From positions 1-15,748 of the forward strand of contig JBECUL010000019.1 of NCBI GenBank assembly GCA_040225955.1: DNA of 15,748 bases, in the 5' to 3' direction. Both the position numbers and the translations under genes were made by a program. Within the stretch, counting starts at the first letter, position 1; each line of letters opens with the position of its first letter. Under the pieces are notes generated by a model. It did not search any database. It saw only the letters and a list, made by a program, of their open reading frames with translations, and was not told the DNA's origin. Of the stretch, positions 1 to 15,748 are shown one piece after another. This DNA comes from Candidatus Asgardarchaeum abyssi (lineage in GTDB: Archaea; Asgardarchaeota; Asgardarchaeia; Asgardarchaeales; Asgardarchaeaceae).

Positions 1-643
1 TGTCCCCAAATCCTTTTTTTTTTTTTTTTTCGTTATATAGAAGTAAAATTTTGGCTGTAAGTTTTAGGGATATCACACAGTTATTTATTATTTTGAATGC
101 AGAGTACTTGTCGTAAGGATTTGCCGACTTTAGCATAAGCTCGGTCTTTTCCAATAACTTTTTATTTTTCTCAATCAAGGAGTTTATTCTTTCTGCTTGA
201 GTTTTTACTTCATGGACAATCCTATTCAGCCTAGGAGAAATACCAATTATTGGAATTAATCCATGCTTAGAAGCTAAGGAATTATAAAGCTTATAATTAA
301 AAGGAGCAACATAAACATTCTCTATTATTTTTGTGAAACCAGAATTCGTGAGAAAGCTAAGAAGATTTTTTGATTTTCGCTTTAGGATTGCTATAATCCA
401 CTTTTTCTTCCTCAGCTCCCTATTGAGATAAAATTGCATACCGCAGTCAGTAATGGTAACCTCTGACCTCCTCATGTTAATTCTTACCAAACCTTGCATC
501 TCTAATAACTGTAGAGCTTGAAGAAGTTTCTCTCTTGTTAATTTAACATGAAGGAGTATTTCATTTATCGGAATTTTATCGTCTTGCAGTGTTCTTGATA
601 TTCTTACAAGCTTCATTAGCAAATCAACGTTTTGAATAGACAT
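1..643 (-). CDS. wHTH + Cas2-like (PaaX-like architecture) protein, 3'-partial (>=214 aa, runs off window)
   Basis: Manual translation from ATG 643 (overlaps the upstream CARF stop at 624-626) is open to base 1: MSIQNVDLLMKLVRISRTLQDDKIPINEILLHVKLTREKLLQALQLLEMQGLVRINMRRSEVTITDCGMQFYLNRELRKKKWIIAILKRKSKNLLSFLTNSGFTKIIENVYVAPFNYK... The N-terminus has a winged-helix pattern (L..L...GLV....V.IT..G). It is followed by W-hydrophobic strand...L...GF..I..NVYVAP, as in Cas2-like/PaaX central domains, then a helical tail. The ORF track lacks it, presumably because there is no stop in the window. Confidence 0.7.
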   Translation of the reverse strand, partial: MSIQNVDLLMKLVRISRTLQDDKIPINEILLHVKLTREKLLQALQLLEMQGLVRINMRRSEVTITDCGMQFYLNRELRKKKWIIAILKRKSKNLLSFLTNSGFTKIIENVYVAPFNYKLYNSLASKHGLIPIIGISPRLNRIVHEVKTQAERINSLIEKNKKLLEKTELMLKSANPYDKYSAFKIINNCVISLKLTAKILLLYNEKKKKKGFGD

Positions 644-1271
644 CCTTATCGCATCCGAGTTCGATTACAAATTTACCTCCAGCTAATTCATCACCCACGA
701 TCTGATACAGAATTTGGTGCCTACATGGTATTTCTGAATATAATTTTTCACCATACGCTTTTTCATCAATAAGGTATAAGTAGTATATTCTATCAACATT
801 TCTTAGAAGAGCAACTGATAGCGACGCAACAGTCATTATTTTCCTTCCAGGGGTTATATCAACCGCTATACTAACATCTTTAGCCGTAATATACCTATCG
901 ATTGCCCCTTTAATTCTCATTTGAAGCTCGCTGAATGTCGGTCTCTCAGACACTCTAATTATCCCAAGATAATTATTTTGGTCAAGATGATCATTGTAAT
1001 ATTCTAGGAGGCACCTTAACACTTCTTTATACTTCTCAAATACTTTCTCAGCAGAAGGCGTAGCTATTAAGATAACTTTATCAGGAATAAATGAATCACG
1101 CTTTATAGCAGCCCAGATACAGTTTATTGTAGCTATTGGAGTGTGCCCTAAAAACGAAATCCACACCCTATAATTAACTTCATTTTTTCTTTTCAACAAC
1201 TTTCCATACCATTCTGACCTATTTTCTTCATTTGGCGTTTTTCTAAAATTAAGAATAGGGTTGTTGGACAT
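624..1271 (-). CDS. stand-alone CARF-domain protein (Crn1-like ring nuclease or cOA-sensor subunit)
   Basis: Motif I VWISFLGHTP and motif II VDITPGRKIM followed by IYYLYL, with no effector domain. Start moved to ATG 1271 (GGAGG SD upstream, directly after the cas1 stop) rather than 1310. Confidence 0.8.
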   Translation of the reverse strand: MSNNPILNFRKTPNEENRSEWYGKLLKRKNEVNYRVWISFLGHTPIATINCIWAAIKRDSFIPDKVILIATPSAEKVFEKYKEVLRCLLEYYNDHLDQNNYLGIIRVSERPTFSELQMRIKGAIDRYITAKDVSIAVDITPGRKIMTVASLSVALLRNVDRIYYLYLIDEKAYGEKLYSEIPCRHQILYQIVGDELAGGKFVIELGCDKDVYSKR

Positions 1272-1272
1272 T

Positions 1273-2259
1273 TTAAACCCTCCAAATAAACGGTTCAACT
1301 TTTGAATCATGAAGTAAACACTTTATGATTTTCTGAATCTCATTAAGAATGTGGGTTCTATACTTTCCAAATGCTAACTTAATGGCTGTTAATACACTAT
1401 TTTTTCCTCTTTCGTTAAGGTGTATTGCTGTTCCGACTTTGCGGAAATGATATTTTGGGTTTAAAGCCCCATCTAAAATCATTGAGAAAACTACAGAATC
1501 CACAACTGGTTGCCTGAATTCCTCAAGCATGTCTAATGATAAACTATCTCTACCTCGCCCAAATTCATGCAAGAACCCTATTTTTGTATCAAACCCGAAA
1601 TCAAGTAGCATTTCTTTTAATTTATGACCGACAAAGACATATCCATAACTAAGAGCAGCATTTACAGGATCCGTAGGTGGACGTTTTACTCTTCCACGAA
1701 AATCAAATTCGCTAGGAATGATTTCAGAAATCGATTGGAAGTATATATGAGCCCCATTTCCCTCAATACCCATCAAAGATTCGATATTTTCTTCAATTGA
1801 CATGGAATCGGAAAATTCGGTTTGGCTTAACCTAAGAATGATTCTTTCTAATTCCTTTACGGCACTACCAAAGTTAAACCTTGTTATTTTCTCCAGAAAA
1901 AGAAGCATAGATCTCTTATTCATTAAAGCAGAATATACAAACCGTTTTGCTAAATAAAATCTTATTTTTGGTGTAATATAGCTACGTATTTGCATATACC
2001 TTAGTAGCATGGTATTGTAACTTGAAATTCGAATTGCTAATCTCTTAGGGTTTTTCTTAAATATTAGTGATGCACCCGAAAATTGTGAAATCGTGCTTAA
2101 TACCTTTGTACTTATATGCCCAACTCCAAATATCTTAATGACAAAAATATTGTCACTATCTAACGGGATATCATCCTTGCGATCTTTCGTTTTAAAAATA
2201 ATTCTATCCCTCTTTCGATAGAGCAAGAAGCCCCAACCATACTTTTCAATATAACTCAT
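1273..2259 (-). CDS. cas1: CRISPR-associated endonuclease Cas1
   Basis: LMGIEG, FRGRVKRPPTDPVNAALSYGY, IGFLHE and SLSLDMLEEFRQPVVD motifs; catalytic E/H/acidic residues present. Confidence 0.97.
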   Translation of the reverse strand: MSYIEKYGWGFLLYRKRDRIIFKTKDRKDDIPLDSDNIFVIKIFGVGHISTKVLSTISQFSGASLIFKKNPKRLAIRISSYNTMLLRYMQIRSYITPKIRFYLAKRFVYSALMNKRSMLLFLEKITRFNFGSAVKELERIILRLSQTEFSDSMSIEENIESLMGIEGNGAHIYFQSISEIIPSEFDFRGRVKRPPTDPVNAALSYGYVFVGHKLKEMLLDFGFDTKIGFLHEFGRGRDSLSLDMLEEFRQPVVDSVVFSMILDGALNPKYHFRKVGTAIHLNERGKNSVLTAIKLAFGKYRTHILNEIQKIIKCLLHDSKVEPFIWRV

Positions 2260-3283
2260 TAAGCTCTCCTCTTAGCTCACGTAATTTTCTAAGCAGTCTA
2301 AATTCTCTCTCTAAATTATATAAAGTGTCTGATAAGCCCGGAGACATTTGTTGACTTATGTCAAGCTGCACTAAGACCCATGGGTCCTCGCTAACATATG
2401 ATTTCTTATAAATCCTAAATTTTAGTTTGAAAGGAGCCTCAATAGATGATACCTTTAGCTCTAAAAAGTTGGTTGCAAAGATATAGACGACTTGCGGAAG
2501 TACATAAATAGGCCTTTTAATAAAAGGAAGAATCTCCAATTCTTGATCTAAGTATATAGATTCAACACCTAGTGATCTAAACCATGAAACAAAGCGTGCA
2601 TCAGCCCCTATAAAAAAGAAAGAATAATTTTTCTCTCTTGTAGATTCTAAGAAACTATAATAATCTTCCATTATAGCCTTGTCTCCTAATTTTTTTGTAT
2701 ATAATCCCCCTGTGTGTGATTTCAATGTGTATTTTATTAGTTTATTTGAATAATGAAAACTAAACTCTCTAATACCAACTATAGCCCTCAAACATTTTGG
2801 ACTTTTTATCATCTCTTGCTTATTAACGCCAGATATAATATGCATTAGTTCATCTAAAATCAGCGGGCTTACATAAAGGGATATATTCTTTAATCCTTCT
2901 TTCTTTTTAGATAGAGGATAAAAGATATTTGAGACTACTCTGAGAATAAAATCATTTGTGTCAAATAAAAATATAACTGGTTGCCAGCTTGATGCTCTAT
3001 TTATCAATTCGCCAATTTTCTCCGAATTCCTAAGTTCTAAAATGCCTGCTTGTATTAGCGAAGTTCTTACATCATCCAAATCAACTCTATTAGTTTCAAT
3101 GTCTTGACTTAACTCATGCAAATCAAACATTACATAGGGCTTGTCCTCTGCAAGCTCTGCATAAAATGTATAAATGTTCTGATTTCTCGTTCTAAATTCA
3201 AATCGAAGTGTATTATCTAACTTAAAAAATACATTTAGAAAATGAAATATTTCTGGAAGATATATATCAATCGTCCTCATCAT
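2246..3283 (-). CDS. PIN-domain nuclease (CRISPR-associated, extended N- and C-termini)
   Basis: PIN acidic motifs FLFDTN, VSPLILDEL, LGDKAI and FIGADARF. Tightly coupled to cas6 (adjacent) and cas1 (14-nt overlap). Confidence 0.8.
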   Translation of the reverse strand: MMRTIDIYLPEIFHFLNVFFKLDNTLRFEFRTRNQNIYTFYAELAEDKPYVMFDLHELSQDIETNRVDLDDVRTSLIQAGILELRNSEKIGELINRASSWQPVIFLFDTNDFILRVVSNIFYPLSKKKEGLKNISLYVSPLILDELMHIISGVNKQEMIKSPKCLRAIVGIREFSFHYSNKLIKYTLKSHTGGLYTKKLGDKAIMEDYYSFLESTREKNYSFFFIGADARFVSWFRSLGVESIYLDQELEILPFIKRPIYVLPQVVYIFATNFLELKVSSIEAPFKLKFRIYKKSYVSEDPWVLVQLDISQQMSPGLSDTLYNLEREFRLLRKLRELRGELNELY

Positions 3284-4336
3284 TTAGCTGTACACCTCAA
3301 AATAATACATACCAGCACCCATTGTCGCTAATTTGCCAATATGTAGAAACTTACCCATCAATAAAGACTCAAAAAGAGTTTTACCTGTAAGATCACGATA
3401 AATATCCCTCCCTATCTTATAGAAAACGGTTCCTCTAATGAAGTCATGTATCTTCACAAATTTTGCTTTCTTCATGCTAAAACGGGATATTGTCATTCTC
3501 TTAATATTGGAGATTTCGATTCTTGTGTTTTCTTCAACCCTCTTGATCACATTCACAATATTAACATCAAAGAAGCTACTATTCCAGAAGTATTCCGAGA
3601 GAAATAGTATCTTTCTTGTAATGTTCTTAAGGATCGAACTAAGTGAAGGTGGTATTTCAGGAGCTCCTCCAGCAATAACCATGGTTGGAGTTAAAAATTC
3701 CATTTTCAGTAACCTAGGCTCAGTAGATACAATATCCTCCGCAACATCAGATATGAGCCCTCTTGTTATATCTGTTGGCCTACCATCAATTGGTGATTTA
3801 TAAATCCCCTCCCCAAAAACTATGTCAGTTTCCTTAGTAAATGGATTTACCGACAAAATTCTAAGAACAGAGAATTTCCTTCTCTCCTTAGTTCTTGGAC
3901 ATCTCCCCAATCCTAATTCTCCCATCCTTCTTATCACATTGACTATCATCGCCTCTTGACTAAAAGTATATCCTCCAAATAAGTTCAGCTCAAAGTTAAA
4001 TGATAGACCTTCTCTCACAATAATATTTGTTAAAGTATAAGGCTTTGTGATTCCAACTAACTTATATCCAACCTTACTCATAGCTCCAAAAAAAGATCTA
4101 GATGATGTCTCAAATATTATCTTATAGGGGCACCTTGCTGTATATGGGCACCCACGGCAACTTTTCTTCCTAGTAATTTTCTTCCTAGTAATACACACTT
4201 CTTTTCTTAATGAATAACCAAAAACTCCTCTTATAGCAGTACCAAGCCACCCCGGAACATAATAATCATTATCAAAGACACAATCAATCCTCAGTACCCT
4301 AATCAGCGGGTGATCATCTCTCAACAATATCACCAT
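3284..4336 (-). CDS. cas6: CRISPR pre-crRNA processing endoribonuclease Cas6 (Cys-knuckle type)
   Basis: C-terminal Gly-rich loop HIGKLATMGAGMY; N-terminal LGTAIRGVFG plus C..CRGC....CPY; GLG and FLTP motifs. The start may be a few codons downstream because GGTGA overlaps the ATG. Confidence 0.92.
   Translation of the reverse strand: MVILLRDDHPLIRVLRIDCVFDNDYYVPGWLGTAIRGVFGYSLRKEVCITRKKITRKKSCRGCPYTARCPYKIIFETSSRSFFGAMSKVGYKLVGITKPYTLTNIIVREGLSFNFELNLFGGYTFSQEAMIVNVIRRMGELGLGRCPRTKERRKFSVLRILSVNPFTKETDIVFGEGIYKSPIDGRPTDITRGLISDVAEDIVSTEPRLLKMEFLTPTMVIAGGAPEIPPSLSSILKNITRKILFLSEYFWNSSFFDVNIVNVIKRVEENTRIEISNIKRMTISRFSMKKAKFVKIHDFIRGTVFYKIGRDIYRDLTGKTLFESLLMGKFLHIGKLATMGAGMYYFEVYS
4163..4192. 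repeat. perfect 15-bp tandem duplication inside cas6 (ITRKK x2)
   Basis: TTTCTTCCTAGTAAT at 4163-4177 and 4178-4192. Confidence 0.95.
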
Positions 4337-4767
4337 TATATAGAACGAAATTAAACATATTTATTAATTGTTGAGTACCTTCTAAACCTATAAAGATGAC
4401 TTTATAGTAAAGGTAATAATCATCGATAAGTAACAAATTTTGATATTTACGTTGCAGAATGAAAAACTGTTACTGGAGTGATTATATAATTTTATTATAA
4501 GGATTGAAGTATATAATTCATTCACTTCATAAATCACTTCTTGCAACCTTCTACAGCAAATTTCGAATATCTCATCTCTATATATTCTTAAACTCCTCTC
4601 TATAGAAACCTTACTCATGCAATAATTCTCTCTCTGGGCTGAAATACAATTTGACTTCTACAAACTATATAACTTTTGTTATTTTACGTTAGTTTTAAAT
4701 ATACTTCCTTTCTAACTTCTCATTTAAAATTTAATTAAAATTATTATGTCGCTTGGGGGTTTAAAGG

Positions 4768-5499
4768 ATGATTCGACCTGAAATTCCTGGGAGTATGCCT
4801 GTTAGTGAAGTTGAACTATTAGTTTTTGTAATGGATGGATCTGGAAGTATGAGCGAAACGTGCACTCCAGATGGCAGAAGTAAAGCAGAACATTTATATG
4901 ATATAGTACATGGTGTTTTGAATAGACTAATGAACAGTTCGAAAAAAGATGTTTTTAGAATCAGTTTTGTTTACTTCTCTGATACAATTAAGGTGGAGGA
5001 GATAAATAATTCATGTTACTTCCCTATTGATATTGCAATAAGCAATTTAAGGAACCCATTAGATGTTGTTGGAGGTGGATCTACAGCTATAGCTGACGCT
5101 CTTGCTAAGGTCAATGAAATCTTTGACAAGTTTTCAGAGGACGAGGGAATCCCTGAGGATAAAAAAGCAACTGTTTTTCTTTTTACAGATGGGCAAGAGA
5201 ATGTTAGAGGCAAGGATGATGTAATTCAAGAGGCAAAAAAGCTTTTGACGTACCCTCTATCACCAGTTATTGCAACAATATCCTTTGGTTCGGATGCGGA
5301 TGAGAGTTTGCTAATGGAAATTGCAAGTAAGCCTAACGATAGACAGATAAGGCATTTAGATATATCTGGTGTACTTTCAGAGCTGCCAGATACTAATAAG
5401 TTATATCTCCAAGGCCATGCAAGTGATGGAACAATAACGAGAAGAAAAATTGAAGCTATTAGAAATTTTGTAGAGACACTATCAGTTACGAGGACCTAA
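4768..5499 (+). CDS. TerY-like von Willebrand factor A (vWA) domain protein, copy 1
   Basis: Intact MIDAS: DGSGS, GGSTAI, FTDG. Operonic with kinase, PP2C and TerY-C. Confidence 0.9.
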   Translation: MIRPEIPGSMPVSEVELLVFVMDGSGSMSETCTPDGRSKAEHLYDIVHGVLNRLMNSSKKDVFRISFVYFSDTIKVEEINNSCYFPIDIAISNLRNPLDVVGGGSTAIADALAKVNEIFDKFSEDEGIPEDKKATVFLFTDGQENVRGKDDVIQEAKKLLTYPLSPVIATISFGSDADESLLMEIASKPNDRQIRHLDISGVLSELPDTNKLYLQGHASDGTITRRKIEAIRNFVETLSVTRT

Positions 5500-5500
5500 A

Positions 5501-6484
5501 ATGGCGGTTATTAGATTTTACAATAAAAGATTTTACAGCAATCCAATTCAAGTCAATGTAGAGAATGATTTAAAAAATGAAAACTATGGAGGACAAGCTA
5601 GGATTTATTCTTGGAAATTTAGAAACAAGAAATTTATAGTAAAAGCTATACCTGATGATTCTGAAATTTTTAGAAGAATGAGAGATATCTATTATGCTCT
5701 TAGCGATAGAAAGAGGCGTAAAATACCACATTCAATATTTTTGAGAGGTATCCCAGTTGCCCAAGGACTTGGTACTCCAGAAGAATTCAAATTTCGTACA
5801 GCAAAGAGTGTATATCTACTAGTTTTTAGGTATACCTACGGAGAGATACTTAGTGAATACTTTAAGAAAAGGAAGGAGCCTCCCCTATCAGACGTGAGAA
5901 AAAATATTGCCAAGAAACTCTTGGATATACTCATATATATGCAAGACCGCAATGTCATCCACGGAGATCTTTATCCGGATAACTTTTTAGTTGATAGAAA
6001 TGGACAAGTATTTATAATGGATTTCGAAGGCGCTGGCGTTATGAATAGTAACAGAAGATTTTGGATTTGGAAACCCACAGTACTGGGAAAAGATTATATT
6101 TTCCCAAATCCTCCAGAGGTAAAAAGAACTGGGGTTCCTTCATTCTTTTCCGATAGATGGATTGGCGTATTTTTAATATTTTGGACCTTGGTTGGTATTC
6201 ATCCTCTGCCCTTTCTAATAAGAATCGATAATAAAGCCTTAGAAGATCTATATAATAACACCGATAAGAATAAACATCAATGGCCACCAGTTATAAAATC
6301 TACTTGTAAATATATTCAGAAGGAATATCCAATTGAAAAATTTAGGACTTTTATGGAACATTATTTTGGAGATACAAACTTTGGGCGAATTTTATTTTTA
6401 ACCTATATTATTGGGTTCAAAGAACCCAGTAAGAGACCATCTTTTAGAGAAGTTAAAGTTAGTTTGAAAGGGGTGATTGAATAA
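5501..6484 (+). CDS. Hanks-type Ser/Thr protein kinase (TerY-P type)
   Basis: G-loop YGGQARIY, IVK lysine, catalytic HGDLYPDN, DFE, PPE, SDRW, GIHP and KRPS. Confidence 0.92.
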   Translation: MAVIRFYNKRFYSNPIQVNVENDLKNENYGGQARIYSWKFRNKKFIVKAIPDDSEIFRRMRDIYYALSDRKRRKIPHSIFLRGIPVAQGLGTPEEFKFRTAKSVYLLVFRYTYGEILSEYFKKRKEPPLSDVRKNIAKKLLDILIYMQDRNVIHGDLYPDNFLVDRNGQVFIMDFEGAGVMNSNRRFWIWKPTVLGKDYIFPNPPEVKRTGVPSFFSDRWIGVFLIFWTLVGIHPLPFLIRIDNKALEDLYNNTDKNKHQWPPVIKSTCKYIQKEYPIEKFRTFMEHYFGDTNFGRILFLTYIIGFKEPSKRPSFREVKVSLKGVIE

Positions 6485-7824
6485 TGCCATATAGGAGAAT
6501 AAATAATATAGAAATAGCTTGGGATTTTGATTCAACGAAACATTTTGATGATCAGCTATATATTAAAGATATCGGAGATAAACTATTTGTATTTCTGGCC
6601 GATGGCGTTACTCAATCTCAATGTGGCAGAATTGCTGCTACGCTTTCAATAAAATACATAATTGATTCTCTAATAGAGTGCGAAAATGAAATTAGGAAAG
6701 CTTCTAGTGTTAATAATTTAGAAAAAATCTTATTAGAGAGTGTTAAATTTGCTGGAGATAAACTTAAAGAGGATAGAGAAATCCTCTATAACTACGTATT
6801 AATACAGAACCTTTCAGAAAGCTACAACATTCTAAGAACAGTATATAATAAGGTTCAAGAGACTATTATCAAATTCAGGGAGTCTATTTCAAAATTACAA
6901 GACAGTGTTGAAAATTTAAGGAAGTTCTGTAAGGATCTGGTTAATAGACCTTCTCTAGTATTAAACACAGATTTAAATACAAATTTTGATCAAATAGTGA
7001 ATATCATAAGACAGAATTATGACTATGTAACTGCATTTAGAGGACCCTTTAATAATTTAATTAATGAATTACAGAGAATCAAAGTTTCTGAAGAATATCA
7101 AAAAGAAAAAATACTTGCTGAAAAATGCATAATGAACGCTATAATGCTACTAAAAAATGGGTTTAACATGGATAAACTAGATGAAACTATATATAATTTC
7201 ATACTTCCACAGTTACAAGATCCATTTGAGAAAACAGGAATTCAAAAGGAAAATTACGAAAGAGGAAAAGCAAAACTCAATCAAATACTCAATACAATCA
7301 AATTCATGATAAATGATAAACGAGAAAATTATAGGAAGTTAGAAAAAATTATACAAGAACGTATTTTGAATTCAAAAGAGTTAATCTTTGAATCAACTCT
7401 TACAGTAATGGTTTTCTCATTAAATCAGCCTACTAAATTACTGAACTTAATTTTAGGGGATTCCCAGATTTATATTTATAATCCCACATCTGAACAGTGG
7501 ACAGTAGTATACGCTACTTCAAGTCGTGGTGGTTTAGCAAAATATATTTCAAGTGTGAAGGGCATTAGTGGCGAACCACATATATCATTAGTGACACTAA
7601 ATGAAAATGATATTTTAATAGCAAATACGGATGGTGCAAACATTCATTATACAACACCTGGAGGCCAACCAGGAGCTATCTTCCTAAAAAAATTAGAGAG
7701 GTTCATTAGAGAGAGGAAAACAATAAAAGGTTTTCCTGAAGAATGGATCAATTATTTGAGAGAGAAAGATGCACTTACGGACGATGCATCAATATTCCTC
7801 TTACATGTATTAGGAGGAATATGA
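6484..7824 (+). CDS. PP2C/PPM-family protein phosphatase with large helical insertion
   Basis: FDD, LADG, ESTL, LGDS, NTDG and TDDAS motifs. TAATG coupling to the kinase and a GGTGA SD. Confidence 0.88.
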   Translation: MPYRRINNIEIAWDFDSTKHFDDQLYIKDIGDKLFVFLADGVTQSQCGRIAATLSIKYIIDSLIECENEIRKASSVNNLEKILLESVKFAGDKLKEDREILYNYVLIQNLSESYNILRTVYNKVQETIIKFRESISKLQDSVENLRKFCKDLVNRPSLVLNTDLNTNFDQIVNIIRQNYDYVTAFRGPFNNLINELQRIKVSEEYQKEKILAEKCIMNAIMLLKNGFNMDKLDETIYNFILPQLQDPFEKTGIQKENYERGKAKLNQILNTIKFMINDKRENYRKLEKIIQERILNSKELIFESTLTVMVFSLNQPTKLLNLILGDSQIYIYNPTSEQWTVVYATSSRGGLAKYISSVKGISGEPHISLVTLNENDILIANTDGANIHYTTPGGQPGAIFLKKLERFIRERKTIKGFPEEWINYLREKDALTDDASIFLLHVLGGI

Positions 7825-7827
7825 CCT

Positions 7828-8223
7828 ATGATGGCTAATATGGATCTAAGAAAAGTTAGGAGATTCCCCGTTAGAGGAGTATGTAGCGTGACTGGGAAAA
7901 AGTTTTTAATCATTTTCAGAAAAGAATGTGAAGGAAATTACTTTTTAGAACGAGTAATTCCAACAAATGCAAATATTGATGATGACTCAAGTTTTTCTAT
8001 TGAGCTTAGGATAATCGGTACATTTCACGGCGTTCTTAAATGTCCTTACTGTGGTGTTTCTCTGAAGTATGATATAAATTGGGTAAAGTGTACTATGTGC
8101 GGTTATATCAATTGTGCTGGCGGAATCGAAAAATATCATGATGGATTATATCTTCTCTGTAAAAACTGTAACTATGGTGGCTATCTGAGAGATACAGTTA
8201 AAGATTTAGACATGGGTGACTAA
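7828..8223 (+). CDS. TerY-C-like Cys-rich metal-binding protein (stand-alone)
   Basis: Pattern GVCSVTGKKFLI...CPYCG...CTMCGYINC...CKNC matches my recollection of the TerY-C metal-binding domain; AGGAGG SD upstream. Confidence 0.75.
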   Translation: MMANMDLRKVRRFPVRGVCSVTGKKFLIIFRKECEGNYFLERVIPTNANIDDDSSFSIELRIIGTFHGVLKCPYCGVSLKYDINWVKCTMCGYINCAGGIEKYHDGLYLLCKNCNYGGYLRDTVKDLDMGD

Positions 8224-8225
8224 AA

Positions 8226-8954
8226 ATGATTAGACCAGATATTCCAAAATTTATACCTACCGCGGAGGCAGAGCTTCTAATTTTCCTTCTCGATTCGTCA
8301 ACAAGTATGGCTAGTACAAAAACCTTTGATGGAAGAACAAAATCAACACACTTGTACTTATTAGTGCAACATCTTCTAAAAAGATTACTCAAGAGCCCCA
8401 AGAGGAATACATTTAGATTTTGCTTTATCTATTTCTCAGATATAATAAAAGTTCTCAAAAGTTATACCTCAGAATACTATCCAGTCAATATTGCATTAAA
8501 AATATTAAAAGAACCGTTTGACATTATTCCTGGCGGCGCTACAGCAATAGGATACGCTCTAAGAGAAGCAATGAAAGTTCTAGATCACTTCATGAAGGAC
8601 GAAGGAATACCTGATGTCAAAAGTTCAACGATATTTCTATTTACCGATGGGCGAGAAAATTTAATATCGCACGACAATCTTATAGCCATAGCAAACCAGT
8701 TAAAGAGTCATATCATAGCACCATCACTTGCTACAATCTCCTTGGGAAAAGATGCAGATAAAAACACACTTATAGAAATTGCAAGTAACCCAAATGATAG
8801 ACAATTACGTCACCTAGATATGGCAAATTTAATTGATTTCCTGGAGAGAAAAGATAAATTATTCTTAGAGGGACATGAGGGAGATAAGTTCACACGAAAA
8901 CGAGTTGAAATTCTAAGAAATTTTGTAGAAACTTTATCTACAACACGAAAATAA
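8226..8954 (+). CDS. TerY-like vWA domain protein, copy 2
   Basis: MIDAS DSSTS, GGATAI, FTDG. Colinear paralog of 4768-5499 (26 of the first 50 residues identical; shared DEGIP, NDRQxRHLD, RNFVETLS). GGGTGA SD. Confidence 0.9.
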   Translation: MIRPDIPKFIPTAEAELLIFLLDSSTSMASTKTFDGRTKSTHLYLLVQHLLKRLLKSPKRNTFRFCFIYFSDIIKVLKSYTSEYYPVNIALKILKEPFDIIPGGATAIGYALREAMKVLDHFMKDEGIPDVKSSTIFLFTDGRENLISHDNLIAIANQLKSHIIAPSLATISLGKDADKNTLIEIASNPNDRQLRHLDMANLIDFLERKDKLFLEGHEGDKFTRKRVEILRNFVETLSTTRK

Positions 8955-9326: not shown

Positions 9327-10289
9327 TCATAAGATTTCATTTATGTTTATTTCTTCAAGTATACCCTTGTTAAGGCCCCATCTTCTCCATTCTGCAAAAT
9401 TCGTCACATTTTCTTGCTCTATGATGTTTCTCAGTTCTATAATTTTCTTTAAGAATGGCGATAACTTAACCACTCTTTTTTCAAGGTCCGCGATAAATAA
9501 TCTCTTCAATTTTGCTTTCTCAATTTTCAATTCTTTCTCTACATAGTTCAAGAACTGTTTCTCATTCATAATTCCTCCAAGCTCGTTGAACTTTCTACTT
9601 ATATTGTCAATTACATCCATAGATAAACTAAACAAATAAAGTTCATTCCAATTCTCAAGAAGCTTCCTTACAATTCCTGGTGTAACTTCTTTTGGAAAAT
9701 TACTTAAGAATTCAGGGTGAAGCAATTCCACATCATTTTGAAATATATAATAATAAACAGTAGGCGTTGCATAAAGAGTACCAGTAACCAGGAGAGACGC
9801 ATTTATTTGATTAGACCCTCCAATCATGTTTACCCAGACTTCTTTATCACGTAAAGACTTCATAGTAACACCTATCTTATAAAAACAATCCTCAAAGCTC
9901 TGATGTTTTACTTCAAGAAAATATACTCTCTTAAGCTTTCTAACGACATCTTCCAAATTCTGAGTCCTTAATTCGTTTAGGAGTTTAGAGACGAATTTTA
10001 AAAATATGCTCTTAAAATCCGCGCTTTTAATAACACCAATGTTAAACCATTTCGATCTTACAGGTTTTATTTTACATTCACCAGAAATCACCTCTCTCGA
10101 TGTAAATAAAATAATTACCTCAGGAGCACCTCTATACTTTTCACTTTTCTCTCCCGATTGGTTAAAGAAGTCCTTTGCTTCATTGATGTTATCAGAATAT
10201 GCTGCTTTCAATAATAAGTAAACATAAGATAGTGGAACAGTAACGCTTCCAGGAGATAGCCCTACACCGCTCAAATGGTATACTCCCAT
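9327..10289 (-). CDS. divergent CARF-domain protein with C-terminal helical/wHTH-like region
   Basis: Motif I YHLSGVGLSPGSVT, IILFTS strand, motif II VWVNMIGGSNQIN followed by YYY; AGGTGA SD 6 nt upstream of the ATG. Confidence 0.7.
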   Translation of the reverse strand: MGVYHLSGVGLSPGSVTVPLSYVYLLLKAAYSDNINEAKDFFNQSGEKSEKYRGAPEVIILFTSREVISGECKIKPVRSKWFNIGVIKSADFKSIFLKFVSKLLNELRTQNLEDVVRKLKRVYFLEVKHQSFEDCFYKIGVTMKSLRDKEVWVNMIGGSNQINASLLVTGTLYATPTVYYYIFQNDVELLHPEFLSNFPKEVTPGIVRKLLENWNELYLFSLSMDVIDNISRKFNELGGIMNEKQFLNYVEKELKIEKAKLKRLFIADLEKRVVKLSPFLKKIIELRNIIEQENVTNFAEWRRWGLNKGILEEININEIL

Positions 10290-10412: not shown

Positions 10413-11162
10413 TTATTGTGCCATGTTCTTTCTATATTTATTTATTTCTTCTACCTTCTCAGCAATCCGTATAATACATTCTCCATCTTTAGTTATCTCT
10501 ATCAGAAAACGACGTTTATCCTCCTCTAAAGGTACTTTCTTGATAAATCCAAAACGTGCTAGTTCATTTATTTTCTCCGAAAGTTTACCTTTACTTCTAC
10601 CAATCTTCTCTACCTCACTTACGCTAAGCTTTTTTTCTATTTGCTGTGCAAGCTGTGCATACTGTTTTATCTTAATTCCTTCCTTTTTCACCTCACGTAA
10701 AACCTTCAAAATCATAAGCTTTGTCTCACTCGGTAGACGAATACTTATCTTAGGCAGGTTTAACTTTATAATTCTCTCATTTCGATAATCATAAAAGAAA
10801 TAATATATGCCATCTACCCTCGCAAGAATAGCTGCTGTTATAGCAGCTAATGTCATAATCCTCGTGCCACCACTAGCATCGACAATTACTTCACATTCTT
10901 TTTCTTTCTTATATATCCCTAAAATGCAATCAATTATTCTCCCGACAGTTCTCCAATAATCAAGAGAGTCAACCTCAATAACCTTAATTTCGGAACTAGC
11001 AAGGCCAAAATTATTTGTAATCTCGTCTACAATCTCATAAGCTTTCTCCTTGGTCTCACTTGATGGAAAAAGATAAACACCACTGCATCCTGTAGTAAAC
11101 ATTCCATGGAGTATCGTTTTCTTTGTATAATCTCCAACTGTTGCAAGATAATACCTCTTCAA
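10413..11162 (-). CDS. csa3: Csa3-like CARF-wHTH transcriptional regulator
   Basis: YLATVG...VIVDASGGTRIMTLA CARF domain plus a MarR-like wHTH (ILKVL...QLAQ...INELARFGFIKK...IEITKDG). Likely start is TTG 11162 after a GGTGA SD (ORF track start 11174). Confidence 0.85.
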   Translation of the reverse strand: MKRYYLATVGDYTKKTILHGMFTTGCSGVYLFPSSETKEKAYEIVDEITNNFGLASSEIKVIEVDSLDYWRTVGRIIDCILGIYKKEKECEVIVDASGGTRIMTLAAITAAILARVDGIYYFFYDYRNERIIKLNLPKISIRLPSETKLMILKVLREVKKEGIKIKQYAQLAQQIEKKLSVSEVEKIGRSKGKLSEKINELARFGFIKKVPLEEDKRRFLIEITKDGECIIRIAEKVEEINKYRKNMAQ

Positions 11163-11359
11163 TAAAATCACCAAATTATGCGATGTGAATCACCATATAT
11201 TACTATTACTTTGTACATGACCTCTTATCATTTTCGATATTTTTGAAATTTTTCTCTCTTTTTTGGAATGTTCCCATTTCTTCGAAACATTTCTCTGCAA
11301 AATCAATGTCATCGATCTGAAATGTATTATATAAAAATAAGATACGAGGTGATAACACG

Positions 11360-11434
11360 GTGGAGCTGCAATTTTCCGAACCAGAGCCAGATTGGCCGCC
11401 TGATGATCCCCATCCATTACCATGGGATGGTTAA
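11360..11434 (+). CDS. putative 24-aa Pro/Asp/Trp-rich peptide MELQFSEPEPDWPPDDPHPLPWDG
   Basis: GAGGTGA SD at 11346-11352, 7 nt before the GTG; GC-rich island in AT-rich DNA; pyrimidine tract downstream. Confidence 0.4.
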   Translation: MELQFSEPEPDWPPDDPHPLPWDG

Positions 11435-11788
11435 CTGGGTAGGGCGGCCAGTAATCTCTTCTCTTCTTTTTATATTTAAGATCCATAGCATATGCTAATA
11501 TTTTTACACATGCTTAATTCTTATTATTACATTTGTAGTAGACTATAAACCAAAAATAGAAAAGTCACATGTTCTAATCATAAGATGATACCAGCTTAAA
11601 AGCAAAATTATTTTTAAAATTAGGAAATCTATTTTGTATTCTCATAACAGTCTTATCAACAGTCTGAAATTATTTCTGACTTTGTCTACATTTCATTAAT
11701 TCCAATAATTATACATCATACATTAGTTCATAATATTTACAGTAATTACAGTAATTCGTTTATTATTATTCACATTTTTATAGTTCGA

Positions 11789-12804: not shown

Positions 12805-15747
12805 GTTGTATCGAATGCCTCGATGAATAGAGGACGGCAACTCCCTGACAATTATGTCATAGTTGTCCTCGCTAGTTTCAAGTTGTATCGAATGCCTCGA
12901 TGAATAGAGGACGGCAACATATGTATAAAGAATACAGCACCAAAATCTCTAATCTTTGCCTGTTGTATCGAATGCCTCGATGAATAGAGGACGGCAACAG
13001 GGTATTGTTCGATGCAATCGCCGTAATATAGATATTATTTCGTTGTATCGAATGCCTCGATGAATAGAGGACGGCAACAATAGCTCCAAAGTTTGTCGGG
13101 CCACTGTTTGGTACTAATAGATGTTGTATCGAATGCCTCGATGAATAGAGGACGGCAACTATCTTTCTAGCTGTCTTTTTGCAACACTAAGAACATAATC
13201 AGGGGTGTTGTATCGAATGCCTCGATGAATAGAGGACGGCAACACGCGTTTAAATACACTTTTTGCTATCTCACCAACTCTTACATGTTGTATCGAATGC
13301 CTCGATGAATAGAGGACGGCAACATTCTACTGCCTCGAACACCTCCCTGCAATTAACACCTAGCAGTTGTATCGAATGCCTCGATGAATAGAGGACGGCA
13401 ACGGGTTTGAACTCACCAACTATTGGGAATCTGCCACGCACCTTTTGTTGTATCGAATGCCTCGATGAATAGAGGACGGCAACCTATCAAGAGTACAGGA
13501 GTTAGGTCATAAGCCTCTATTTCATGTGTTGTATCGAATGCCTCGATGAATAGAGGACGGCAACCCCATCTTGCTGCCACCACCTCAACGATCTCACTGA
13601 AGTACAAGTTGTATCGAATGCCTCGATGAATAGAGGACGGCAACAAACTTTTTTCTGCAAACCTCACAAATATAAATGCAATAGTTCCCTTGTTGTATCG
13701 AATGCCTCGATGAATAGAGGACGGCAACAATTGTCTCTTTATTCTCTTTTCAATTTCCTCTCTCGTTAATTGTTGTATCGAATGCCTCGATGAATAGAGG
13801 ACGGCAACCCCAGTCATCTCCTATTCCGAGCCAACCTGCTCGAATTGGTAAGTTGTATCGAATGCCTCGATGAATAGAGGACGGCAACAAATCTGAAGTC
13901 TGGGTTCGAACCCAGACTTCATCATCTATAACAAGTTGTATCGAATGCCTCGATGAATAGAGGACGGCAACTTTTCTTTTTTCCTCTGTGTTCTCAAATT
14001 TATCATAAAGGGCTTTGTTGTATCGAATGCCTCGATGAATAGAGGACGGCAACCTTTATCTTTCTCAATTCGAGATTTTTCAGCAGTTTTCTTGTTGTAT
14101 CGAATGCCTCGATGAATAGAGGACGGCAACGTCTAATCACTGGTTGTGTCAAAAATGTTCGGATATTTTCAATTTGTTCTTTGTTGTATCGAATGCCTCG
14201 ATGAATAGAGGACGGCAACGTCTAATCCCTGAAACGGCAGTGTCGTCGGGTACTAAGTTATAGTTGTATCGAATGCCTCGATGAATAGAGGACGGCAACA
14301 TGCCAACACACTTTTTCATTTTCTCTTCTTCCTTTTGTTTATGTTGTATCGAATGCCTCGATGAATAGAGGACGGCAACAGAAAGTGAGGGTGAGGTCAC
14401 CCTCATCGAGGTGCAATAAAAACGATACTGATATGTTGTATCGAATGCCTCGATGAATAGAGGACGGCAACTTCTTCAAGTTTACAAGCTCTCTTCAGCA
14501 GTTTGTTTAATGGTTGTATCGAATGCCTCGATGAATAGAGGACGGCAACACTGCGTCAATGTACTCAGAAAACAACAAGGTACTTTCTGTTTGTTGTATC
14601 GAATGCCTCGATGAATAGAGGACGGCAACATTTTTTCTGGTATCTCCATTTCGAGAATTTGCTCAGGCGTTGTATGTTGTATCGAATGCCTCGATGAATA
14701 GAGGACGGCAACTTGCCTGAATATCAGCAAATATGCTTTATAAGGATCATTGTTGTATCGAATGCCTCGATGAATAGAGGACGGCAACAAAAGTCCATTG
14801 CAAGTCATTGAACTCCGCAACAACACTGTTTATGTTGTATCGAATGCCTCGATGAATAGAGGACGGCAACTCGTAAATATTCATATCTGCCACCATTTAT
14901 TTTGACGCAAGTTGTATCGAATGCCTCGATGAATAGAGGACGGCAACATCAATGGTCTGTCTTCGTTCGATATAGTCTATCTCTGCGTTGTATCGAATGC
15001 CTCGATGAATAGAGGACGGCAACATGCCAACACACTTTTTCATTTTCTCTTCTTCCTTTTGTTTATGTTGTATCGAATGCCTCGATGAATAGAGGACGGC
15101 AACAGAAAGTGAGGGTGAGGTCACCCTCATCGAGGTGCAATAAAAACGATACTGATATGTTGTATCGAATGCCTCGATGAATAGAGGACGGCAACTTCTT
15201 CAAGTTTACAAGCTCTCTTCAGCAGTTTGTTTAATGGTTGTATCGAATGCCTCGATGAATAGAGGACGGCAACACTGCGTCAATGTACTCAGAAAACAAC
15301 AAGGTACTTTCTGTTTGTTGTATCGAATGCCTCGATGAATAGAGGACGGCAACATTTTTTCTGGTATCTCCATTTCGAGAATTTGCTCAGGCGTTGTATG
15401 TTGTATCGAATGCCTCGATGAATAGAGGACGGCAACTTGCCTGAATATCAGCAAATATGCTTTATAAGGATCATTGTTGTATCGAATGCCTCGATGAATA
15501 GAGGACGGCAACAAAAGTCCATTGCAAGTCATTGAACTCCGCAACAACACTGTTTATGTTGTATCGAATGCCTCGATGAATAGAGGACGGCAACTCGTAA
15601 ATATTCATATCTGCCACCATTTATTTTGACGCAAGTTGTATCGAATGCCTCGATGAATAGAGGACGGCAACATCAATGGTCTGTCTTCGTTCGATATAGT
15701 CTATCTCTGCGTTGTATCGAATGCCTCGATGAATAGAGGACGGCAAC
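12805..15747 (+). CRISPR. CRISPR array, 37 repeats of GTTGTATCGAATGCCTCGATGAATAGAGGACGGCAAC (37 bp), 36 spacers of 39-55 nt (27 unique); type III-like repeat; truncated by window end
   Basis: Identical repeats from 12805 to 15711-15747. The CCTC/GAGG stem and GAGGACGGCAAC 3' end resemble type III-A repeats (…GGGGACGGAAAC). The leader on the left supports + orientation. Confidence 0.99.
14263..15710 (+). repeat. 724-bp tandem duplication of 9 repeat-spacer units
   Basis: Spacers 19-27 (unit 14263-14986) recur identically and in order as spacers 28-36 (14987-15710). Confidence 0.97.
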
Positions 15748-15748
15748 A

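What the first reader, a model, noticed from the sequence alone, without database searches (positions are those of the whole stretch)
4768..8954. TerY-P-like vWA-kinase-PP2C-TerY-C-vWA phospho-switch embedded in an archaeal CRISPR locus (best candidate new system)
Seen: five tightly coupled genes (gaps of 3 nt or less) with intact MIDAS, kinase and PP2C motifs. They are divergent from cas6, sharing a 430-bp intergenic region, and bounded on the other side by two CARF genes and the array. Known: the TerY-phosphorylation triad (vWA + PP2C + Ser/Thr kinase) is a described bacterial stress and anti-phage module, typically three genes. I do not know it as a CRISPR ancillary module or in this five-gene archaeal form. 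Inference: a kinase-toxin/phosphatase-antidote switch that is either induced by the Csa3-like cOA sensor through the shared divergent promoter or that phosphorylates Cas proteins, i.e. a phosphorylation arm of type III immunity. The alternative is plain defence-island co-location.
Basis: partly seen in the sequence, partly recalled or inferred. Interest (0 to 1): 0.85.

Follow-up and report, generated by a model that had tools for sequence, protein, structure and literature searches.

The report
Kinase-phosphatase-vWA switch inside CRISPR locus
An uncultured archaeon carries a five-gene protein-phosphorylation switch (two vWA proteins, a kinase, a phosphatase and a zinc protein) inside a complete RNA-targeting type III-B CRISPR locus; it is a rare, expanded relative of a known anti-virus module, and its link to CRISPR signalling is plausible but unproven.

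Summary
Five translationally coupled genes at 4768-8954 encode a vWA protein, a Hanks-type Ser/Thr kinase, a PP2C phosphatase with a ~200-residue helical insert, a TerY-C-like zinc protein and a second vWA protein. All catalytic and MIDAS residues are intact. The cassette lies between cas6-PIN-cas1-CARF and csx1-like/csa3, a 106-repeat array and cmr1-6.

It belongs to a sparse archaeal and bacterial vWA-kinase-PP2C family that resembles TerY-P but is not recognised by PADLOC's models. Most family members lie outside CRISPR loci: beside type I R-M, HerA-NurA/BrxL, a transposase or housekeeping genes. The two closest relatives with readable flanks (L007, L010) both adjoin CARF-PIN-family genes. 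L010 repeats the kinase-PP2C-Zn-vWA2 order.

In other genomes of the phylum, homologous cas6 genes sit directly beside csx1-like or csa3 genes with no cassette. The cassette is therefore a dispensable insertion.

The idea is not new. Altae-Tran et al. 2023 list a CRISPR-linked "vwa + PPC + kinase system" (UAS-87, 14/25.6 loci), and this scan earlier reported an FHA-containing CRISPR-linked phospho-cassette on other DNA.

Verdict: a new variant of a known kind. Functional coupling to cOA/CARF-PIN signalling is about 45% likely and untested.

The parts
4337..4767 (.). 431-bp divergent intergenic region between cas6 and vWA1. It has a TATA-like TTTAAATA at about 4694-4701 and a G-rich ribosome-binding stretch just before the ATG at 4768.
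   Evidence: Sequence read. The promoter assignment is inference only. No 11-mer is shared with the other intergenic regions of the locus.
4768..5499 (+). vWA1 (243 aa): a vWA domain with a complete MIDAS and a family-specific ~50-aa C-terminal tail ending in a conserved LSxT.
   Evidence: Pfam VWA 6e-16; MIDAS and tail conservation; only a weak partial hit to PADLOC TerY (2e-5).
5501..6484 (+). Hanks-type Ser/Thr kinase (327 aa) with a family-specific C-terminal WPP...RP extension and no fused zinc ribbon.
   Evidence: Pkinase 1e-10; best PADLOC hits are mad6, PD-T4-6 and MkoA kinases; K48, D156, N161 and D174 conserved.
6484..7824 (+). PP2C phosphatase (446 aa). The core is residues 1-100 and 300-446, split by a helical insert of about 200 residues (about 100-300).
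   Evidence: AF2 model and Foldseek hits, all PP2C; alignment showing a variable insert, 283 aa in L012 to 455 aa in L010; NCBIfam Stp1 N-terminal hit 3e-4.
7828..8223 (+). Cys-rich 131-aa protein, TerY-C-like. Eight Cys are conserved with its only sequence homologue: C19, C72, C75, C88, C91, C96, C111 and C114.
   Evidence: Atlas features and structure point to PF15616 clusters; no Pfam hit; homologue only in L010, 48% identity; my AF2 model was unusable, pLDDT 49.
8226..8954 (+). vWA2 (242 aa), a paralogue of vWA1 (50% identity) with an intact MIDAS.
   Evidence: It forms a 100/99-supported clade with the L010 vWA, so the duplication predates the split of the two lineages.
2246..3283 (-). 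Context: PIN-like protein, equivalent to the C-terminal half of the CARF_m1 CARF-PIN family. A homologue follows vWA2 directly in L010.
   Evidence: PADLOC PDLC01973 2e-13; BLASTP to the L010 downstream gene 6e-6, colinear.
624..1310 (-). Context: CARF protein, equivalent to the N-terminal half of the CARF_m1 CARF-PIN family. A fused 514-aa CARF-PIN lies beside the vWA1 orthologue in L007.
   Evidence: PADLOC 1e-28; L007.
3284..4336 (-). Context: cas6, divergent from the cassette.
   Evidence: Pfam CRISPR_Cas6. Homologues in G113, G005 and G115 sit next to csx1-like, csa3 or the array without a cassette.
9327..10289 (-). Context: Csx1-like CARF3 protein with no HEPN motif, convergent on the cassette.
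   Evidence: PADLOC CARF3 2e-73; sequence.
10413..11174 (-). Context: Csa3-type CARF-wHTH regulator.
   Evidence: Pfam Csa3_N 1e-9 plus a winged-helix domain.
12805..15748 (+). Context: CRISPR array of 37-nt repeats. It runs on to contig position 21366 (106 repeats) and is followed by cmr1-cas10-cmr3-6.

Best explanation
The cassette is a reversible protein-phosphorylation switch of the TerY-P type, consisting of vWA sensor/scaffold proteins, a Ser/Thr kinase and a PP2C phosphatase. [quoted passage not shown] Shown: all five genes are intact and translationally coupled, with conserved catalytic and metal-binding residues. The core order vWA-kinase-PP2C is conserved in a sparse family found in archaea and bacteria. 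The sublineage adds a TerY-C-like zinc protein, a second vWA protein and a long helical arm in the phosphatase. That sublineage sits beside CARF-PIN-family genes in all three contigs that show context. Inferred: the MIDAS sites of the vWA proteins hold a partner or phospho-peptide. The kinase is released or activated on infection and phosphorylates targets; these possibly include the conserved LSxT tail of the vWA proteins, by analogy with ArnB. The PP2C resets the switch. The output either gates or backs up the cOA-activated CARF-PIN/Csx1 arm, producing dormancy or abortive infection. The input from Cas10-made cOA, through the neighbouring CARF proteins or Csa3-dependent transcription, is the least supported step.
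For: Gene content and motifs. Position inside a complete III-B locus with a GGDD Cas10 and four CARF-type genes. Recurrence: L010 has kinase, PP2C (455 aa, PF13672), a Zn protein, vWA2 and then a PIN-like homologue of window 2246-3283. L007 has a CARF-PIN (514 aa), a wHTH/CARF_m5 protein and the vWA1 orthologue. These relatives are only 37-58% identical to the window proteins and the arrangement differs, so the linkage has survived rearrangement. vWA2 orthology has 100/99 support. Immune flavour of the wider family: fusions of this vWA to a bacterial Death-like domain, a NYN RNase or kinases, and neighbours such as type I R-M with SoFic, HerA-NurA and BrxL. Published precedent: UAS-87, a vWA+PP2C+kinase system, CRISPR-associated in 14 of 25.6 loci; TerY-P with duplicated vWA and CARF nucleases in CoCoNuT operons; a kinase in a III-B accessory cluster of Haliangium.
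Against: None of the five proteins has a CARF, SAVED or other known nucleotide-sensor domain. Seven or more other family contexts have no cas or CARF genes and no array within the sequence available. Some neighbourhoods look like housekeeping regions (Calescibacterium, Pyrodictiaceae). Homologous cas6 loci exist without the cassette, and no other genome among 399 of the phylum has the PP2C. The CARF-linked set is only three short or single contigs, and L007 and L010 show CARF genes but no cas genes or arrays. No shared regulatory motif was found. There are no expression or biochemical data.
Confidence: 0.45

Rival explanations
1. Stand-alone TerY-P-like defence or stress module that merely landed in the CRISPR locus (defence-island co-location). 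It senses infection on its own and acts by kinase-driven abortive infection, independently of cOA.
For: Most family members lie outside CRISPR loci, often among other defence genes: type I R-M with SoFic in L014; HerA-NurA and BrxL in L045; a 1353-aa DEAD helicase in L038; a transposase in L056. Related cas6 loci lack the cassette. TerY-P-like modules are reported to work alone as antiphage systems (Gao et al. 2020, as cited in PMC11090510). No sensor domain for cOA is present.
Against: All three contigs of the closest sublineage have CARF-PIN-family genes within about 2.5 kb despite rearrangement and 37-58% protein identity. In L010 the PIN-like gene follows vWA2 after 17 nt on the same strand. 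The published CRISPR association score of a vWA+PP2C+kinase system is 0.55, above the 0.35 cut-off.
Confidence: 0.35
2. Regulator of the CRISPR machinery itself. The kinase and phosphatase would modify Cas6, Cas1, Csa3 or Cmr proteins, or control transcription of the divergent cas6-cas1 operon, tuning adaptation or crRNA processing rather than acting as an effector.
For: The cassette shares a 431-bp divergent control region with the cas6-PIN-cas1-CARF operon. A Csa3-type regulator is in the locus. In Sulfolobales, a vWA protein together with a zinc-finger/FHA protein, kinases and a phosphatase controls gene expression (ArnA-ArnB, PMC6509490).
Against: There is no DNA-binding domain in the cassette. 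Family members without any cas genes keep the same core. There is no sequence relation to ArnB/vWA2 in the PDB search. There is no direct evidence.
Confidence: 0.1
3. General cellular signalling module (metal or stress sensing, as first proposed for TerY-P) with no immune role. Its place in the CRISPR locus would be an accident of horizontal transfer.
For: Relatives in Calescibacterium and Pyrodictiaceae sit among housekeeping genes, and the arrangement is conserved in several Pyrodictiaceae MAGs.
Against: Death-like-domain and NYN-RNase fusions occur in the same vWA family. Defence-island contexts are common. CARF-PIN adjacency recurs. The distribution is patchy and HGT-like: 0 of 399 other genomes of the phylum.
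Confidence: 0.08

Closest known systems
TerY-P triad (Anantharaman, Iyer and Aravind 2012; antiphage TerY-P of Gao et al. 2020; the CoCoNuT-associated form in Bell et al. 2024, PMC11090510)
   Same: A vWA protein with MIDAS, a PP2C phosphatase and a Ser/Thr kinase in one operon. A TerY-C-type zinc module is present. vWA duplication and co-occurrence with CARF nucleases are described for compound type III-A CoCoNuT operons.
   Different: The zinc module is a separate gene, not fused to the kinase. The PP2C carries a helical insert of about 200 residues. The gene order is vWA-kinase-PP2C-Zn-vWA. The host is archaeal. PADLOC models see only a weak partial TerY match and no TerY-P kinase or phosphatase. 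The module lies inside a type III-B CRISPR locus rather than with McrBC or a helicase.
[quoted passage not shown] 2023 (PMC10910872)
   Same: The same three activities, catalogued as CRISPR-associated in 14 of an effective 25.6 loci. The seed gene of about 324 aa matches the size of this family's kinase.
   Different: I could not obtain its sequences, so homology is untested. Only a catalogue entry exists, with no mechanism. The five-gene form and the CARF-PIN link are not described in the text I could read.
ArnA-ArnB-ArnC/ArnD-PP2A network of Sulfolobus acidocaldarius (PMC6509490)
   Same: An archaeal vWA protein whose C-terminus carries the phospho-sites, a partner protein, Hanks kinases and a phosphatase forming a reversible switch.
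   Different: There is no FHA domain here. The phosphatase is PP2C, not PP2A. There is no detectable sequence relation to the solved vWA2. The Arn network controls motility and the DNA-damage response, not immunity.
Kinase-containing type III accessories: PCk in the Haliangium ochraceum III-B SAVED-CHAT cluster (bioRxiv 10.1101/2023.06.23.546230); the CARF6 CARF-STK-AAA architecture in PADLOC; C3a189 kinase (Shah et al. 2018, PMC6546367)
   Same: A Ser/Thr kinase encoded with type III CRISPR effectors.
   Different: Those lack the vWA and PP2C partners, or they fuse the kinase directly to a CARF sensor. Here no sensor domain is present in the cassette.

Membership tests
TerY-P triad | vWA protein with complete MIDAS, of the TerY type | tested here: inconclusive
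   The vWA domain and MIDAS are clear. The PADLOC TerY model matches only residues 18-62 of vWA1 at 2e-5 and does not match vWA2.
TerY-P triad | PP2C-family phosphatase in the same operon | tested here: met
   AF2 core pLDDT is about 90. All of the top 50 PDB fold hits are PP2C. Relatives carry PF13672. The Asp motifs are invariant.
TerY-P triad | Hanks-type Ser/Thr kinase in the same operon | tested here: met
   Pkinase 1e-10. The catalytic Lys, Asp, Asn and DxG Asp are conserved.
TerY-P triad | Kinase fused at its C-terminus to a zinc ribbon (TerY-C) or OB fold | tested here: not met
   Neither this kinase nor those of relatives have a Cys-rich tail. A separate 131-aa gene resembles TerY_C by Atlas features and structure but not by the Pfam HMM.
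TerY-P triad | Recognised by the defence-system HMMs (PADLOC) as TerY-P | tested here: not met
   There are no PADLOC hits for the PP2C, the Zn protein or vWA2. The kinase's best hits are mad6, PD-T4-6 and MkoA.
TerY-P triad | Protects against phage or virus | not testable with these tools
   This needs an experiment.
CRISPR auxiliary UAS-87 (vWA + PP2C + kinase) | Composition of vWA, PP2C and kinase next to a CRISPR array | tested here: met
CRISPR auxiliary UAS-87 (vWA + PP2C + kinase) | Sequence membership in the published 30%-identity cluster | not testable with these tools
   The seed locus ERZ795109 contig_975 is named, but no sequence is held.
cOA-controlled type III ancillary effector | Carries or is fused to a CARF, SAVED or other cyclic-nucleotide sensor | tested here: not met
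   No such domain appears in any of the five proteins by Pfam, NCBIfam or PADLOC.
cOA-controlled type III ancillary effector | Recurrent linkage to cas10/CARF genes across divergent genomes | tested here: inconclusive
   All 3 contigs of the close sublineage are linked. None of at least 7 contexts in the wider family is linked.
ArnA-ArnB type switch | FHA-domain partner and ArnB-like vWA with beta-sandwich and helix bundle | tested here: not met
   There is no FHA domain. The PDB profile search returns only generic vWA domains, not vWA2.

The most novel reading that the evidence does not exclude
The five-gene cassette and the CARF-PIN genes form one cOA-gated phospho-relay. Cas10-made cOA, sensed by the neighbouring CARF proteins, would switch the kinase/PP2C balance. 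The vWA/TerY-C proteins would act as phospho-dependent clamps on the PIN RNase or on viral or host targets. This would be a true phosphorylation arm of type III CRISPR immunity in archaea.
Probability: 0.25. Interest if true: 0.8.

Novelty: new variant of a known kind. Interest (0 to 1): 0.5.

Why it matters
Type III CRISPR systems are known to signal through cyclic nucleotides to nucleases, proteases, membrane proteins and transcription factors. Protein phosphorylation has been proposed as an output only from catalogue entries, and no mechanism has been worked out. This locus offers a compact, intact natural example. It has a complete III-B effector, a very long array, several CARF proteins and a kinase/phosphatase/vWA module whose closest relatives keep CARF-PIN neighbours. 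That makes it a good template for testing whether phosphorylation is wired to cOA signalling. If the module turns out to be independent, it still defines a distinct, unannotated archaeal and bacterial branch of TerY-P-like modules that current defence finders miss.

Tried and rejected
1. The search for homologous proteins with the PP2C alone, and then with a four-sequence alignment, found only the query itself plus one short relative.

2. The search for related loci with the two-paralogue alignment found nothing in genome contigs. The 34-sequence alignment was too diverse to use.

3. No close relative of the vWA family was found in viral contigs.

4. The AF2 model of the 131-aa zinc protein was too poor to search (pLDDT 49).

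5. Complex prediction with vWA2 + kinase + PIN-like protein (partner) returned "no answer" with a score of 0.00. This is not evidence either way.

6. A search for shared 11-mers between the cas6|vWA1 intergenic region and the other intergenic regions of the locus found none. The repeat scan found no terminal repeats flanking the cassette. The sigma-70 promoter scan is not meaningful for an archaeon.

8. PADLOC scans of 20 unannotated neighbours of distant relatives found no CARF or Cas proteins, only a type I R-M system with SoFic in L014.

9. The CARF census paper (PMC7498327) is not held in the library.

10. I rejected the idea that the Zn protein is a split-off kinase tail, because no relative's kinase has such a tail.

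Full report
**What is there**

The window is the first 15.7 kb of a 35-kb contig of an archaeal MAG (2.6 Mb, 93% complete; ribosomal protein S8e present).

On the + strand, five ORFs run from 4768 to 8954 with junctions of 1, -1, 3 and 2 nt.

- Genes 1 and 5 are vWA proteins that are 50% identical to each other.
- Gene 2 is a Hanks-type kinase.
- Gene 3 gets no Pfam PP2C hit, only a weak NCBIfam Stp1 match. An AlphaFold2 model built on eight homologues has a confident core (residues 1-100 and 300-446, pLDDT about 90). Every one of the top 50 Foldseek PDB matches is a PP2C/PPM phosphatase, including Stp1, tPphA, PstP, RsbX and SpoIIE. Residues about 100-300 form long, low-confidence helices.
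- Gene 4 is a 131-aa Cys-rich protein with no Pfam match, even at E<=10. The ESM Atlas places it with TerY_C (PF15616) clusters both by language-model features (28 of 30 hits, score 0.90, at least 172 shared features) and by structure (TM 0.63-0.69 to TerY_C-only and vWA+TerY_C proteins). I treat this as a good lead, not proof.

**Are the genes functional?**

Across 34 members of the vWA family, the MIDAS residues D23, S25, T106 and D141 are invariant and S27 is nearly so. Both window copies carry all five.

The family has its own C-terminal tail of about 50 residues ending in a conserved LSxT.

In nine kinases, D156, N161 and D174 are invariant, and K48 is present in all eight that include the N-terminus.

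In eight PP2Cs, the metal-binding motifs are invariant (D22-D23, D40-G41, D326, D383-G384, D433-D434). The insert varies from absent (283 aa in L012) through intermediate (383-409 aa) to full (446 aa here and 455 aa in L010).

**Context**

Upstream, on the other strand, lies one operon encoding cas6, a PIN-like protein, cas1, a CARF protein and a wHTH protein. The CARF and PIN-like proteins match the two halves of PADLOC's CARF_m1 CARF-PIN model.

Downstream, convergent on the cassette, lie a Csx1-like CARF3 protein without a HEPN motif and a Csa3-type regulator.

After these come a 106-repeat array (12805-21366 on the contig) and cmr1-cas10-cmr3-cmr4-cmr5-cmr6. Cas10 keeps its GGDD cyclase motif.

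The cassette is thus truly inside a complete, signalling-competent type III-B locus.

**Relatives**

The PP2C has no homologue in 399 other genomes of the phylum.

An exhaustive profile search with the two vWA paralogues found 215 representatives. About 50 of them are full-length, including the tail.

Wherever flanks are readable, the conserved core is vWA, then kinase, then PP2C. This holds for L012/L045, L013, L038/L048, L054, L055 and L056. Hosts include bacteria (Calescibacterium and others) and archaea (Pyrodictiaceae).

Only one contig repeats the window's expanded form. L010 carries kinase, PP2C (455 aa, PF13672), a 134-aa Zn protein (48% identical, all eight Cys kept) and vWA2. Seventeen nucleotides later comes a gene homologous to the window's PIN-like protein (E 6e-6, colinear).

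L007 carries the vWA1 orthologue (58% identical). Directly upstream are a wHTH protein matching the CARF_m5 model and a divergent, fused 514-aa CARF-PIN.

In a maximum-likelihood tree, the window's vWA2 and the L010 vWA form a clade with 100/99 support. The vWA duplication, and so the five-gene form, therefore predates the split of these lineages. The placement of vWA1 is unresolved.

**Is it CRISPR-linked?**

The evidence pulls two ways.

*For linkage.* All three contigs of the close sublineage have CARF-PIN-family genes within about 2.5 kb. This holds despite 37-58% protein identity and different arrangements (fused versus split, upstream versus downstream).

*Against linkage.*
- The wider family is mostly elsewhere. 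Its neighbours include HerA-NurA, a radical-SAM enzyme and BrxL (L045); a type I R-M system with SoFic (L014); a 1353-aa DEAD helicase (L038); and a transposase (L056).
- Other members sit among plain housekeeping genes in Calescibacterium and in several Pyrodictiaceae MAGs.
- No other locus has an array. Twenty unannotated neighbours gave no CARF or Cas hit.
- Homologues of this cas6 in three other genomes of the phylum sit directly beside a csx1-like gene (G113), csa3 (G005), or an array plus cmr genes (G115), with no cassette.

The cassette therefore looks like an insertion between cas6 and csx1/csa3. It is an optional add-on, not a core part of the locus. No terminal repeats mark the insertion.

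**What the family does in general**

Other members of this vWA family are fused to a bacterial Death-like domain (48% identical vWA), to a NYN RNase, or to kinases. Those fusions, the defence-island neighbours and the patchy distribution are typical of conflict systems.

**Literature**

- The TerY-P triad (vWA, PP2C, and a kinase fused to a zinc ribbon) is an established predicted switch and a reported stand-alone antiphage system. In compound type III-A CoCoNuT operons the vWA gene is duplicated around inserted genes, and Can1/Can2-like CARF nucleases are co-encoded (PMC11090510).
- Altae-Tran et al. 2023 state that vWA-related systems associate with CRISPR loci alongside kinase and phosphatase proteins. 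[quoted passage not shown] I could not get the UAS-87 sequences, so identity with this family is open.
- Dedicated type III accessory surveys list a kinase but no vWA/PP2C module (PMC6546367, PMC11229360).
- A kinase, PCk, sits in a III-B accessory cluster in Haliangium.
- The nearest characterised archaeal analogue in logic is ArnA-ArnB with ArnC/D and PP2A, where the vWA protein's C-terminus carries the phospho-sites (PMC6509490). There is no sequence relation to it.
- This scan earlier reported, on other DNA, an FHA-containing kinase/PP2C/vWA operon said to lie in type III loci in 10 of 11 relatives (e1-975150). I did not check that claim.

**Most likely mechanism**

I commit to a TerY-P-like reversible phospho-switch recruited as an accessory to type III-B/CARF-PIN signalling, at about 45% confidence.

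The shown steps are gene content, intact active sites, family structure and neighbourhoods.

The inferred steps are these:
- The vWA MIDAS sites clamp a partner or phospho-peptide.
- The kinase phosphorylates targets, possibly including the vWA LSxT tails.
- The PP2C, with its helical arm, resets the switch.
- The TerY-C-like protein and vWA2 form a second sensor or adaptor pair.
- The output gates or backs up the PIN/Csx1 arm.

The link to cOA is the weakest step, because no cassette protein has a sensor domain.

The main rival, at about 35%, is an independent defence module co-located in the locus. Regulation of cas genes (about 10%) and non-immune signalling (about 8%) follow.

**Verdict**

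This is a new variant of a known kind: an expanded archaeal five-gene form with a CARF-PIN link. It is not a categorically new system, and the idea of CRISPR-linked vWA/kinase/phosphatase modules is already in print. Interest is moderate.

Noticed in passing
window 624-3283 and L007:1-1542: The window's CARF gene (624-1310) and PIN-like gene (2246-3283) match the N- and C-terminal halves of one PADLOC CARF_m1 CARF-PIN model, with cas1 lying between them. L007 carries a fused 514-aa CARF-PIN of the same family.
   Followed up: partly
contig C19 12805-21366 (window 12805-15748 and L006:1-5619): The array is very long: 106 repeats of 37 nt. Four more repeats of the same type sit on contig C144.
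   Followed up: partly
L006:13470-16897: Two large genes (704 aa and 438 aa) directly follow cmr6 on the same strand. They have no PADLOC match and could be further uncharacterised accessories.
   Followed up: no
L062 (G113:C7), L063 (G005:C317), L064 (G115:C49): Homologues of this unusual 350-aa Cas6 occur in only 4 of 399 other genomes of the phylum. There they sit directly next to csx1-like, csa3 or array-plus-cmr genes. The whole cas locus therefore looks horizontally acquired.
   Followed up: partly
L045:3319-6040 beside L045:7602-10222: A HerA (DUF87)-NurA pair sits next to the three-gene vWA-kinase-PP2C module, with BrxL 6 kb away. Both 'nurA + DUF87' (UAS-90) and 'vwa + PPC + kinase' (UAS-87) are separately listed as CRISPR auxiliaries by Altae-Tran et al. 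2023.
   Followed up: no
proteins P0015, P0055, P0100: The same vWA family occurs fused to a bacterial Death-like domain 1, to a Zc3h12a-type NYN RNase, and to full Ser/Thr kinases.
   Followed up: partly
window 4388-4618 (- strand): A 76-aa ORF lies inside the cas6|vWA1 intergenic region. It has no family match and may not be a gene.
   Followed up: no
window 11190-11486 (- strand): A 98-aa ORF lies downstream of csa3, where a cas2 gene might be expected. It has no Pfam, NCBIfam or PADLOC hit.
   Followed up: no
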